Shown here: one piece after another, positions 6,405-43,084 of the stretch
Layout: every line of letters begins with the position of its first letter
Numbering within the stretch: the stretch's first letter is position 1
Notes under the pieces: generated by a model
What the model saw: the letters and a program-made list of their open reading frames with translations, nothing else
Databases searched by the model: none
What the model was told of the DNA's origin: nothing
DNA from: Chlamydiota bacterium
GTDB lineage: Bacteria > Chlamydiota > Chlamydiia > Chlamydiales > JAAKFR01
NCBI GenBank assembly: GCA_013288105.1
Contig: JABDCM010000003.1
Coordinates: forward strand, 1-62,414
DNA length: 62,414 bases
Direction of reading: 5' to 3'
Program-made: the position numbers and the translations under genes

Positions 6405-6465
6405 GAACCTATCCCAAAACTCAGGTTCATAGAATTCATCTCACGGTAACTTTTGGGATAGGTTC
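6405..6465. repeat. Perfect 15-bp inverted repeat between convergent genes; contains 16 bp of the ACCTGA repeat family; possible bidirectional terminator
   Basis: GAACCTATCCCAAAA (6405-6419) / TTTTGGGATAGGTTC (6451-6465); CCCAAAACTCAGGTTC at 6413-6428 is identical to 24745-24760. Confidence 0.8.
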
Positions 6466-6784
6466 AAGAATGGGCTGGTAGAAATGCGAGTTCTAAATCA
6501 CATGCCCTAATAGCGTTTACAAGAGTCGAAAATCTAGCCTTCCCTTTTTGAGATAAGCTGCGATAAAAACTTTCACGATTCACTCCCATTTTCGCAGATA
6601 CTGCGCCCATGCCACCGTGAGCCTCAACTACATCTCGCACCGCTAGTTGAAAAATACCCATATCGTTGGCCTCGGAACTTTCTTCCAGACATGCATTTAA
6701 ATAAGCGGCTGCATATTCGGAATCCTTAAGTTTTTCTATTAAATCTTCCTTGTAATTTCTATATTTTCTCATGTTTACCACCAT
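6464..6784 (-). CDS. Addiction module antidote protein (HTH antitoxin, HI1420-like)
   Basis: YAAAYLNACLEE...VVEAHGGMGAVSAKMGVNRESFYRSLSQKG; overlaps the toxin gene. Confidence 0.9.
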   Translation of the reverse strand: MVVNMRKYRNYKEDLIEKLKDSEYAAAYLNACLEESSEANDMGIFQLAVRDVVEAHGGMGAVSAKMGVNRESFYRSLSQKGKARFSTLVNAIRACDLELAFLPAHS

Positions 6785-7115
6785 TTATAGACAGATGATC
6801 TAACCAATATTTTTTTGCCTTATCGATATCTCTTTGTTGTGATTTTTTATATCCTCCACAAAGCAACATCAAACAATTCTTAGCTTTATATGCGAAGTAC
6901 ACCCGATAACCAGGACCAAAATCAAATTTTAGCTCAAACACGCCGTCTCCGACTGGTTCGCATGTGCCGAAATTACCCGTTTCCCTGACCCTAGTAATTC
7001 TAGCGTCTATTCTAGCCATAGCCATAGTATCAAGACCTATGGTCCATTCGGTATATGGTTCTTTCCTGGTTTCTGTTTGATATATTACAATTTCATACAT
7101 CGGCTTGTTCATCAT
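6759..7115 (-). CDS. RelE/ParE-family addiction module killer protein (HI1419-like)
   Basis: RIDARITRV..GNFGTCEPVGDGVFELKFDFGPGYRVYF...LLCGG.KKSQQRDI. Confidence 0.9.
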   Translation of the reverse strand: MMNKPMYEIVIYQTETRKEPYTEWTIGLDTMAMARIDARITRVRETGNFGTCEPVGDGVFELKFDFGPGYRVYFAYKAKNCLMLLCGGYKKSQQRDIDKAKKYWLDHLSINGGKHEKI

Positions 7116-7133
7116 TGTAGCTGATTGGCTACA
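7116..7133. promoter_or_regulatory. Palindromic putative TA operator
   Basis: TGTAGC-N6-GCTACA directly upstream of the toxin start. Confidence 0.5.
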
Positions 7134-7210
7134 TTTATGACCAGGATTTTATTTTCCAGAAATGGTATTAATACTTCAGGTTGAATAGATATAAATGCTA
7201 GACTACTCCT

Positions 7211-7945
7211 ATGTCCTCACATTTCCAAGGGAAAAATCCTCACGAACATATTTTACAAAAAAAACAGGAAGGAGCCCTCTCCGAATCCCACGGTTTGGAG
7301 ATGCCCGGACACCTTGCCGCAGGTGCCGATGCCCTCAGAGAGACAGCCCTTCTCCTCTCCCTCGTCTGGCTCCTCCTCCTTCTTGTTAATATCACAGATC
7401 CTCAACGCGCCCTTGCCCTCATCTCCTTTTCATTCGGTATCCTCATCTGGAAAACAGGACGCAGCGGGTGGCTCGCCTGGTCCCGCCTAGAACAGCTCCA
7501 TACACTCATCGAGCAGGAAAAATTTGAAATCGAACACCACAAAGAGCAGGAGAGAGAGGAACTGCTAGCTCTCTACCGTGCAAAAGACTTTGAAGGACCT
7601 CTCCTCGAAGAGGTCGTCGATTTCCTCATGAGTGACCAGAAAAGATTATTAAAAATTATGATAGAAGAGGAGCTAGGACTCTCCCTAGAGGGATTCGAAC
7701 ACCCCCTTAAACAGTGCTTAGGCGCCTTTTTCGGCTCCTTTATCGCTCTTGTCTTAGCTTTTTTCTTTTACTCCTGGCTACCCTCCTATGGCCTTCTCAT
7801 CTCCTCCGCTCTCTCCCTCATCGGCGGCGCTCTTCTCTCCATCCTCTATGAAAAAAATAGAATCATCCCAGGAGTTATCTGGAACCTCGGCTTGGCCATT
7901 TTATGCTTCGGATGTATCTATTTTATATTCAAAATGTTAAATTAA
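7211..7945 (+). CDS. VIT1/CCC1-family metal transporter-like membrane protein
   Basis: EQEREELLALYRAKDFEG...MIEEELGL cytoplasmic domain flanked by TM helices; upstream of P1B ATPase. Confidence 0.8.
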   Translation: MSSHFQGKNPHEHILQKKQEGALSESHGLEMPGHLAAGADALRETALLLSLVWLLLLLVNITDPQRALALISFSFGILIWKTGRSGWLAWSRLEQLHTLIEQEKFEIEHHKEQEREELLALYRAKDFEGPLLEEVVDFLMSDQKRLLKIMIEEELGLSLEGFEHPLKQCLGAFFGSFIALVLAFFFYSWLPSYGLLISSALSLIGGALLSILYEKNRIIPGVIWNLGLAILCFGCIYFIFKMLN

Positions 7946-7949
7946 TGCT

Positions 7950-41612: not shown

Positions 41613-41684
41613 GCGGGTGTAGCTCAGTGGTAGAGCATCACGTTGCCAACGTGAGGGTCGTGAGTTCGAACCTCATCACCCGCT
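41613..41684 (+). tRNA. tRNA-Gly (GCC), CCA not encoded
   Basis: GCGGGTG/CACCCGC acceptor stem, AGCTCAGTGGTAGAGC D arm, TCACG-TTGCCAA-CGTGA anticodon arm, GTTCGAA T loop. Confidence 0.97.
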
Positions 41685-41712
41685 TTATATTTTTTTTACA
41701 AAAGTTTTTCTC

Positions 41713-43005
41713 GTGACTATTAAAATCTTTGAAAATGATTCCTATTCCATAGAAACTACGGAAGAGCCCTCATGTAAAGTCTCTTTCAAAATCATGGCAA
41801 AGGCTCCTATTGCTCAAAAAACCAAAAAAGAGGCGATCAAAAGGGTCAATAAGCAGATCTCTATCCCCGGTTTTCGCAAGGGAAAGGCTCCCGATGCGAC
41901 CGTTCTTGCTCGCTACTCCTCGCATGTGGATAGGGAGTGGAAGGAGATTCTTGTCGATACTTGCTATAAAGCTGCTCTAGAAATGACAGAAATCTATCCT
42001 CTCAATCAGGAGAGCATTCAAAGACCAAAAATCCTCACCTGTTCCGAAGAGAGCGCCTCGATCGCTCTTGCTTTTGAACATTACCCAGAAGTTCCTAAGA
42101 TCAACTTTTCAGAACTCACTCTTGCTCCTGTGGAACCTTCGGTTGTCACAGAGGCAAAAATTCAAGAGGTGATCGATCAGATCCGTAGAGGAAATGCCAC
42201 TTTCGAAGAAATAACTGGTAGAGCGGTTCAGGAGGAGGATTTTGTCGATATCTCCATCGATGCCATTGATCAGGATCCCCCCAAACAAATCGTCAGCGAA
42301 AAGCGTTTTGAAGTGTCCAAACAGCGCATGGCTCCCTGGTTAGTCCATCTGTTAGTAGGGCTTGAAATCGGAGGTCAGATCGAGGGGACAAGCGAACTGG
42401 ATGAACAGGCAGATGAGGCTGTGCGTAGCCGTTTCAGACCCACACGTGTGCGTATTACGCTTCACTCTATCCAAAAGATTCTTCTTCCTGAACTAGATGA
42501 GTCTCTTGCCCAACGGCTTAAGGTCTCATCTGTTGAAGAATTAATGACTAAGGTAAAGGCTAATTTAGAAAATGAGGCAAAAGAGGAGCTCAAGGCAAAG
42601 CAGTATGTAGCTCTCGAAGAGGCTTTACTGCAGCACTACTCTTTTGATCTGCCCACCTCTCTTGTTCAAGCGGAAAAAAAGGAGCGATTCGCGAAAAAAT
42701 GTGCTGAACTTGACAAACAAAATCTTCCAGAAGAGGAAAAAATCCAGAAAGAGGAGCTTTTAGAAAAAGAGACGGAAGGACAGGCGAGACGTTCTTTAAC
42801 TCTCTATTTTTTAAGTAGACAGATTGCAAAACAGGGAAATCTTGTTCTATCCAATGAGGAATTAAGTGATGAGGTACATTATCAGCTCTCTCTGCATCAA
42901 GGGAAGCAAGATAAAGCTCAAACTGAGAAATTGATTCGACGGATTGCCTCACAGATGATGGAAAAAAAGACTCTTGACTATGCGCTTGACCAGGTCACCC
43001 GATAA
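41713..43005 (+). CDS. tig: Trigger factor
   Basis: IPGFRKGKAP signature; upstream of clpP-clpX. Confidence 0.93.
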   Translation: MTIKIFENDSYSIETTEEPSCKVSFKIMAKAPIAQKTKKEAIKRVNKQISIPGFRKGKAPDATVLARYSSHVDREWKEILVDTCYKAALEMTEIYPLNQESIQRPKILTCSEESASIALAFEHYPEVPKINFSELTLAPVEPSVVTEAKIQEVIDQIRRGNATFEEITGRAVQEEDFVDISIDAIDQDPPKQIVSEKRFEVSKQRMAPWLVHLLVGLEIGGQIEGTSELDEQADEAVRSRFRPTRVRITLHSIQKILLPELDESLAQRLKVSSVEELMTKVKANLENEAKEELKAKQYVALEEALLQHYSFDLPTSLVQAEKKERFAKKCAELDKQNLPEEEKIQKEELLEKETEGQARRSLTLYFLSRQIAKQGNLVLSNEELSDEVHYQLSLHQGKQDKAQTEKLIRRIASQMMEKKTLDYALDQVTR

Positions 43006-43010
43006 AAAAC

Positions 43011-43040
43011 TTGACCTTCTGTCGGGTATATGCGTACATT
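43011..43040 (+). promoter_or_regulatory. Putative promoter of clpP-clpX
   Basis: TTGACC-N18-TACATT. Confidence 0.5.
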
Positions 43041-43048
43041 CTCATGAG

Positions 43049-43084
43049 ACCTGAATTTGAGGGAGAAAGACCCCAAACTCAGGT
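43049..43084. repeat. Solo 36-bp unit of the ACCTGA repeat family upstream of clpP
   Basis: ACCTGAATTTGAGGGAGAAAGACCCCAAACTCAGGT; closely matches the terminal units of copies A-C. Confidence 0.85.

What the first reader, a model, noticed from the sequence alone, without database searches (positions are those of the whole stretch)
6405..43084. Candidate new repeat system: a chlamydial palindromic element family that inserts in frame into genes
Seen: a 35-36 bp unit, itself a hairpin (ACCTGARTTT...AAAYTCAGGT), occurs at five loci. Three are inverted pairs bounding 151-216 bp elements (10266-10428, 24608-24758, 32081-32296), one is a solo unit (43049-43084) and one is a 16-bp fragment in another hairpin (6413-6428). 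Two paired copies lie inside intact housekeeping ORFs and add the same ~50-aa peptide; no transposase is present in the window. Established: Rickettsia palindromic elements (RPE) are ~150-bp hairpin repeats that insert in frame and add peptides to proteins, and REP doublets (REPINs) are inverted pairs of short palindromes. Inference: this is a non-autonomous RPE/REPIN-like family creating new protein sequence in a chlamydial genome. Five loci in 62 kb suggests many genome-wide. I know of no such description in Chlamydiota but cannot search to confirm.
Basis: partly seen in the sequence, partly recalled or inferred. Interest (0 to 1): 0.93.

Follow-up and report, generated by a model that had tools for sequence, protein, structure and literature searches.

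The report
Bent mini-transposon writing into chlamydial proteins
A 163-base hairpin-shaped piece of DNA, likely moved by an IS982-type transposase, sits in frame inside housekeeping genes of an environmental chlamydia, where it would add a 56-residue peptide, and its relatives across the phylum keep the same ends, nearly the same length and A/T runs spaced one helix turn apart although their interiors have diverged.

Summary
Observation confirmed; interpretation partly. The element is a 163-bp MITE, not a REP/REPIN. Its 16-bp ends fit the IS982 consensus and match one chlamydial IS982 lineage. It is flanked by a 5-bp TAWTA-type duplication (exact in 10 of 23 copies, 1.6 expected). 163+5 = 168 = 56 codons, and only one phase is open, so it can land in frame. 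Orthologues of both window genes are empty at the site; a relative carries an independent copy 13 codons away in the same GDH loop. Amino-acid selection on the peptide was not detected (P=0.23). The 216-bp 'pair' is a chimera, and the hairpin 'unit' is the right end of the element. Exact-end relatives occur in 32 of 401 phylum genomes (9 families). Those examined are 160-167 bp, with near-saturated but covarying palindromic interiors and 10.5-bp-phased AA/TT runs (43 of 60 arms). 168 bp is also 16 helical turns, so DNA geometry may fix the in-frame length (unproven). Eight literature searches found no description in chlamydiae.

The parts
10266..10428 (+). Full-length 163-bp MITE, in frame in the glutamate dehydrogenase gene (adds 56 codons with its duplication)
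   Evidence: folds as one hairpin, -79 kcal/mol, z -10; AA/TT 10.5-bp period P=0.001
10261..10265 (+). Left copy of the 5-bp target duplication (TACAG)
10429..10433 (+). Right copy of the 5-bp target duplication (TACAG)
9914..13054 (+). Large NAD-glutamate dehydrogenase gene (PF05088/PF00208), host of copy 1; insert follows residue 117 in a variable loop; about 26 native residues missing just downstream
24608..24758 (-). 151-bp MITE copy (12-bp in-frame deletion), 5-bp duplication with one mismatch, adds 52 codons
23398..24942 (-). UDP-N-acetylglucosamine pyrophosphorylase-like gene (PF01704; eukaryote-type UAP structures E 4e-58), host of copy 2; insert between the N-terminal helices and the catalytic domain, LAGGQGSRL motif intact
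32081..32296 (+). Intergenic chimera: MITE ends (32081-32114, 32262-32296) around the core of a second palindromic family (element C, about 32115-32262); ends 1 bp from the stop codon of a cAMP phosphodiesterase gene
43049..43084 (+). 36-bp solo (internally deleted) MITE between tig and clpP; no exact duplication left
6413..6426 (+). 14-bp right-end remnant inside a hairpin (arms 6405-6419 and 6451-6465) between convergent serS and an antitoxin gene

Best explanation
This is a 163-bp miniature inverted-repeat transposable element that is likely moved in trans by a chlamydial IS982-family transposase, and it sits in frame in genes because element plus duplicated target equal 168 bases with one stop-free phase, so the added peptide is likely a tolerated passenger. 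Steps. (1) Shown: 16-bp ends ACCTGAGTTTTGGGTT that fit the IS982 consensus AC(N6)T(N5)TT and match the ends of one IS982 lineage. (2) Shown: a 5-bp (6 in one genome) target duplication with TAWTA preference, in the 5-7-bp, T..A range of related IS982 copies. (3) Inferred: the DDE transposase binds these ends and moves the element; the IS982 mechanism itself is unknown. (4) Shown: 163+5 = 56 codons and only phase 1 is open, so in-gene insertions can survive only in that phase; subfamilies one base longer (164 bp) had no open covering frame in the copies examined. (5) Inferred: survivors are those in permissive loops, linkers and N-termini; selection keeps the frame, not clearly the peptide. (6) Shown: phylum-wide relatives keep ends, 160-167-bp length, arm symmetry and helix-phased A/T runs. 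(7) Inferred, about 50%: phasing and length are kept because a pre-bent 16-turn segment helps the two ends meet in the transposition complex.
For: Ends: IS982 consensus in PMC7335449. Intact 292-aa PF13612 transposase L059 with both ends identical to the MITE left end, 17 of 17. Ends with 0-2 mismatches in 16 beside transposase pieces of 65% identity or more in G011, G013, G021, G024, G145, G177, G251, G397, and in an intact 1015-bp copy in G155. IS982 at 52-59% identity in the same genomes have other ends. L343 has an IS982 end abutting a 165-bp MITE across the shared 5-bp duplication. Duplication: exact 10 of 23 in G000 vs 1.55 permuted, P=1e-4; exact 5-6 bp in 32 of 50 copies across the phylum. 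Frame. Empty orthologues and an independent G013 insertion in the same GDH loop. MnmE and Ogt domains split by in-frame copies in G013. Phylum spread: 32 of 401, control 0. Phasing: 43 of 60 arms P<0.05, phase R 0.81, vs 3 of 20 IS ends and 7 of 60 random stretches.
Against: No IS982 transposase found in the own genome (61% complete) or in the single-contig G020, which has the MITE. Co-occurrence is not enriched: 8 of 31 MITE-positive vs 62 of 369 other genomes, P=0.22. Five IS-rich genomes show no MITE. The MITE interior has no similarity to the IS interior, so descent from this IS is not shown, only shared ends. Against step 7: 325-bp and 95-bp variants also occur at several sites; cyanobacterial and other IS982-ended repeats are not phased (0 of 11); neutral decay from a highly periodic ancestor keeps much of the signal (6.3 vs 7.8 observed). 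No transposition or translation was observed.
Confidence: 0.82

Rival explanations
1. The element is kept as a functional structured RNA or single-stranded DNA hairpin (terminator, mRNA-stability or processing signal), and mobility is secondary.
For: 34 of 50 pairs change on both sides, 0 of 500 shuffles. G.T mismatches outnumber A.C 76 to 33 in one orientation, 20 vs 3 elements. The sense strand folds better than the reverse, -79 vs -59 kcal/mol. Several copies abut start or stop codons.
Against: Positions are not conserved between genomes. No Rfam family matched. Distribution is patchy. Arm-to-arm copying in DNA palindromes also gives double-sided changes (own knowledge), and the TAWTA target itself resembles stop codons and AT-rich leaders. 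The orientation skew may be inherited.
Confidence: 0.08
2. The 56-residue peptide has been domesticated as a functional module (flexible linker, or basic extension of signal peptides in the reverse orientation).
For: Old copies (about 70-85% identical to each other) keep full length and frame in 21 of 21 coding cases, pN/pS 0.61. Independent insertions in one GDH loop. Inserts coincide with loss of native residues in GDH and in a C5 protein. In G000 the two reverse-orientation coding copies (net charge +12) both precede signal-peptide-like cores.
Against: Non-coding copies give pN/pS 0.75; the difference is not significant, P=0.23. Coding copies were defined by an open frame, so the lack of stops is circular. 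No Pfam match for the peptide. Orthologues do without it.
Confidence: 0.07
3. It is a REP/REPIN family moved by an HUH (RAYT, IS200/605-type) transposase.
For: Inverted pairs of short self-complementary units and solo units exist.
Against: 5-bp duplication, IS982-type ends, no PF01797 in G000, no GTAG or CGTC terminal tag as defined in PMC3733652; solos are deletion forms.
Confidence: 0.02

Closest known systems
MITECca01, IS982-derived MITE of Cardinium cOegib (PMC9769881, parts 1-2 of 3 read)
   Same: Non-autonomous, IS982-type ends, intracellular symbiont, many copies.
   Different: About 240 bp, one strain only, intergenic or gene-inactivating, parent IS intact in the same genome. Here 163 bp, 9 families of a phylum, repeatedly in frame in genes, fully palindromic interior with phased A/T runs.
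Rickettsia palindromic elements, RPE-1 and relatives (passages of PMC2229807, PMC10969869, PMC3733652)
   Same: About 150-bp hairpin repeats fused in frame into conserved genes of an obligate intracellular bacterium; near-neutral effect reported for gmk.
   Different: Other phylum, other ends; RPE target duplication is listed as '?' in the PMC2229807 table and no mobiliser is named in the passages seen, whereas here both are identifiable. Sequence homology to RPE was not tested directly.
IS982 family, including ISPasp1-3 of Parachlamydia (PMC7335449, parts 1-3 of 6 read)
   Same: End consensus AC(N6)T(N5)TT; ISPasp1/2 have 4-5-bp direct repeats and 1018-1023-bp length like the partner IS found here.
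YPAL/RU-2 of Yersinia, ERIC, Correia 107-bp form (passages of PMC2229807)
   Same: MITEs with open frames fused into ORFs; YPAL is also about 168 bp / 56 aa; in Correia the open and closed size classes differ in genic location, as 163 vs 164 bp do here.
   Different: Other hosts; ERIC and Correia have TA termini; homology to YPAL not tested.

Membership tests
MITE (prokaryotic) | Short, no transposase, terminal inverted repeats | tested here: met
   163 bp, 16-bp ends, no Pfam match to the peptide
MITE (prokaryotic) | Target site duplication | tested here: met
   exact 5 bp in 10 of 23, P=1e-4; 32 of 50 across the phylum
MITE (prokaryotic) | Dispersed copies with empty orthologous sites | tested here: met
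IS982-associated MITE | Ends fit AC(N6)T(N5)TT | tested here: met
   sequence vs PMC7335449
IS982-associated MITE | Ends shared with an autonomous IS982 | tested here: met
   L059 17 of 17; G155, G024, G397 and others 0-2 mismatches in 16
IS982-associated MITE | Partner IS in the same genome | tested here: inconclusive
   not found in G000 (61% complete) or G020; pieces with matching ends in 8 MITE-bearing relatives; no enrichment, P=0.22
IS982-associated MITE | Interior derived from the parent IS | tested here: not met
   no local similarity beyond the ends; so 'shares ends with', not 'deletion derivative of'
IS982-associated MITE | Mobilised in trans by the transposase | not testable with these tools
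   needs a transposition assay
REP/REPIN | GTAG or CGTC tag at the end of the palindrome | tested here: not met
   ends read ACCTGAG; tags from PMC3733652
REP/REPIN | RAYT (HUH) gene flanked by the repeats | tested here: inconclusive
   no PF01797 in the 61%-complete genome
RPE (Rickettsia) | Palindrome inserted in frame in conserved genes | tested here: met
RPE (Rickettsia) | Sequence homology to RPE-1 to RPE-10 | not tested
   no RPE sequence was at hand; Rfam scan of the window found only a tRNA
RPE (Rickettsia) | Insert-bearing protein expressed and active | not testable with these tools
   needs proteomics and an assay

The most novel reading that the evidence does not exclude
DNA mechanics writes protein. 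An ancient chlamydial IS982 parasite is selected as a pre-bent segment whose length plus target duplication makes 16 helical turns (168 bp), and because 168 is also 56 codons, that constraint makes it a recurrent in-frame donor of 56-residue peptides across a phylum. It would be an RPE-like system with a named transposase, a defined target and a physical reason for its coding compatibility.
Probability: 0.3. Interest if true: 0.85.

Novelty: new variant of a known kind. Interest (0 to 1): 0.62.

Why it matters
How RPE-like repeats move and why they fit reading frames is open in the reviews read. Here the ends, the 5-bp target, an intact candidate transposase, empty orthologues and one-base-longer subfamilies without an open frame are all in hand, so mobilisation and peptide tolerance can be tested directly. 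The copies also map insertion-tolerant sites in chlamydial enzymes (the same GDH loop was hit twice). The conserved length and helical phasing under a saturated interior suggest a shape requirement of the uncharacterised IS982 transposition complex.

Tried and rejected
REP/RAYT: no PF01797, wrong end structure. Rfam: only a tRNA in the window. Plasmid collection: no match. Minicircle junctions: end-to-end junctions occur in 6 of 401 genomes (3 control hits), 5 with a 5-bp spacer, and once in the metagenome scan. In the four loci with a full MITE (L343, L345, L346, L348) the spacer recurs at the far end, so they are insertions into an older duplication, not evidence of circles. Length steps of one helical turn: cyanobacterial IS982-ended repeats of 162 and 172-173 bp hinted at it, but 240 further genomes gave one copy of 167 bp; inconclusive. 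Arms as tandem copies of the terminal repeat: similarity peaks at offsets 21, 32, 44-45 and 52 are explained by T-runs; not claimed. Amino-acid selection: not significant. Expression: no RNA holder listed. Contigs of run X1 join the element to both gdh flanks but none spans it, and X1 may be the source sample. A structure prediction of the pyrophosphorylase was queued and had not finished, so loop or linker placement rests on alignments. A HAD orthologue search gave only one distant hit.
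Full report
1. Observation. A profile built from the seven window units finds 87 hits in 57 clusters in the 969-kb genome (61% complete) and none in the reversed genome; some clusters are weak fragments. The main form is a 163-bp element. 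I listed 12 copies of 151-164 bp, five of 325 bp, three of 95 bp and three shorter ones, besides chimeras and 35-37-bp solos. The host is taken as chlamydial from a UPF0137 gene, the SNF2-mreB-pckA order next to tig (both traits recalled as chlamydial) and the named Parachlamydiaceae record of the closest transposase.

2. Anatomy. The element begins ACCTGAGTTTTGGGTT, ends with the complement and folds as one hairpin (-79 kcal/mol, z -10). Its flanks repeat 5 bp: exact in 10 of 23 copies against 1.55 after permutation (P=1e-4), and within one mismatch in 16 of 23. Window 32081-32296 joins these ends to the core of another palindromic family.

3. Partner. The ends fit the IS982 consensus AC(N6)T(N5)TT given in PMC7335449. 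An intact 292-aa PF13612 transposase (L059) has both ends identical to the MITE left end over 17 bases. Among 24 loci from 38 genomes, chosen because they matched the MITE, transposase pieces of 65% identity or more in G011, G013, G021, G024, G145, G177, G251 and G397 have ends with 0-2 mismatches in 16. IS982 of 52-59% identity have other ends. Of 16 further copies fetched from MITE-negative genomes, 15 showed at least one end within 3 mismatches, with 5-6-bp duplications in 5 of 7 checked. One metagenome contig has an IS982 end abutting a 165-bp MITE across the shared duplication. Against: no PF13612 in G000 and none in single-contig G020; 8 of 31 MITE-positive versus 62 of 369 other genomes hold a related transposase, P=0.22; five IS-rich genomes have no MITE by a relaxed pattern; the interior does not resemble the IS. 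No PF01797 was found. Mobilisation by IS982 is thus inferred from ends and duplications.

4. Coding insertions. 163+5 = 168 = 56 codons. In G000 only phase 1 is open, on both strands. Removing element and one duplication from gdh gives ILFTEVVE, as in orthologues. Of 21 GDH orthologues aligned, 20 are empty and G013 has its own truncated copy 13 codons downstream; the window protein also lacks about 26 native residues after the insert. Of 23 pyrophosphorylase orthologues, 21 cover the site and all are empty; the insert precedes the catalytic domain. Other in-frame copies in G000: a conserved C5 protein, a partial copy in a 630-aa ORF, a 325-bp composite at the start of a HAD hydrolase, and two reverse copies before signal-peptide-like cores. 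Several copies in a long open frame are probably upstream of the true start (sucB, transaldolase, UPF0137). In G013, the 30 best DNA hits include about nine sense copies inside ORFs (RecD, Ogt, shikimate kinase, LipA, GDH among them), while nine 164-bp copies have no open covering frame. MnmE of G013 and the copies in G011, G014, G020 and G027 were picked from peptide hits, so they show presence, not frequency. Against domestication: pN/pS to the genome consensus is 0.61 in 21 coding and 0.75 in 24 non-coding copies, P=0.23; copies were hand-picked and coding status was defined by an open frame.

5. Phylum view. A pattern of both exact ends 152-172 bp apart matches 130 elements in 32 of 401 genomes, 9 families, control 0, and none in the 30 small genomes of family f35. 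The 50 examined are 160-167 bp (163 in 20, 164 in 10) and 32 have an exact 5-6-bp duplication. Neighbouring size classes are nearly empty: 121-151 bp, 4 elements in 35 genomes; 173-203 bp, 0 in 5 genomes. Outside the own family, 1 of the 41 copies examined lay in a long open frame with an upstream start, so in-frame residence may be uneven; these are young, exact-end copies. Using one element from each of 30 of the 32 genomes, interiors are 58% identical (shuffled 52%) yet 74% self-complementary; in 25 aligned, 34 of 50 pairs change on both sides, 0 of 500 shuffles. AA/TT steps peak at period 10.5: 43 of 60 arms P<0.05 with phase concentration 0.81, against 3 of 20 IS982 ends and 7 of 60 random stretches, and the two arms add in phase. 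33 of 50 elements exceed the 99th percentile of the genome. Arms and genomes are not independent. Limits: best-case neutral decay from the five most periodic arms, without indels, retains amplitude 6.3 at matched identity, against 7.8 observed and 3.1 shuffled; the 325-bp and 95-bp forms occur at several sites; 11 non-chlamydial IS982-ended repeats are not periodic. G.T mismatches exceed A.C, 76 to 33, so single-strand folding may matter too.

6. Mechanism. Most likely an IS982 transposase moves the element in trans (inferred), duplicating 5 bp of an AT-rich target (shown). Insertions in genes survive only in phase 1 and at permissive sites (frame shown, tolerance inferred). Phased A/T runs bend DNA (established knowledge), and 168 bp is 16 turns of 10.5; I infer, at about even odds, that bend and length help the two ends meet, and at about 30% that this is why the length is a multiple of three. 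PMC7335449 states that the IS982 mechanism is unresolved.

7. Known systems. It works like Rickettsia RPEs (passages of PMC2229807, PMC10969869, PMC3733652) and is built like the IS982 MITE of Cardinium (PMC9769881, parts 1-2 of 3). It fails the REP tag test. Eight searches and term look-ups in PMC9723776, PMC13229535, PMC11602168 and PMC10969869 showed no chlamydial MITE and no paper on phased A-tracts in a prokaryotic MITE. Subscription papers, ISfinder and the supplements of PMC11602168 were not seen and may hold it. Earlier notes of this scan describe the family in this genome (e1-2299909, e1-9507880) and similar in-frame elements in others; I read them after reaching the IS982 reading, and one word search for periodicity returned none.

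8. Verdict. Real; a new phylum-wide family combining two known kinds, with a testable mobiliser and an unexplained conservation of length and helical phase. New variant of a known kind; interest 0.62.

Noticed in passing
G000:C7:27690-28014, C13:19277-19601, C4:22277-22601, C2:41409-41733, C15:3242-3566: 325-bp composite: a second 162-bp palindromic MITE nested at one fixed site, seen only inside this element (7 of 7 hits). It keeps the frame (110 codons); the C13 copy is in frame at the start of a HAD hydrolase.
   Followed up: partly
window 32115-32262 and nine other G000 loci: A third palindromic family (GGCACGGTAAC repeats) shares ATTCAGG with the MITE and forms chimeras with it; parent unknown, not periodic.
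   Followed up: partly
G000:C1:60887-61049 and C1:103497-103659: Reverse-orientation copies in frame a few codons after the start of a BamD-like and an unknown exported-type protein, adding a +12-charged extension before the hydrophobic core.
   Followed up: partly
G000:C2:50951, C11:20464, C7:27690, C2:34611: Copies whose duplication overlaps an ATG (sucB, UPF0137, transaldolase and one unidentified), leaving the terminal AGGT 4 bases before it, a possible substitute ribosome-binding site; enrichment not tested.
   Followed up: no
L187 (G013) and L225 (G011): In-frame copies just before a similar motif (xPGEPR) in two probably homologous proteins without a family match: possibly a second twice-hit site.
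   Followed up: no
L360, L362-L368, L370 (G442, G444): IS982-ended repeats of 162 and 172-173 bp in two cyanobacterial genomes, with unrelated GC-rich interiors and up to 6-7-bp duplications.
   Followed up: partly
L059: The intact partner IS lies on a 4-kb contig of a genome labelled Thermoplasmatales, while pieces 83-90% identical sit at contig ends of chlamydial genomes: mis-binning or transfer.
   Followed up: no
window 6464-7115: Gp49/HI1420-type toxin-antitoxin pair convergent on serS.
   Followed up: no
window 24954-25994, 26537-29683, 40289-41479: Fic-domain gene, a type III/flagellar ATPase and FliF-like cluster, and an F-box-like protein.
   Followed up: no
window 46106-46144 and 46938-46976: 39-bp direct repeat, 92% identical, 832 bp apart.
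   Followed up: no
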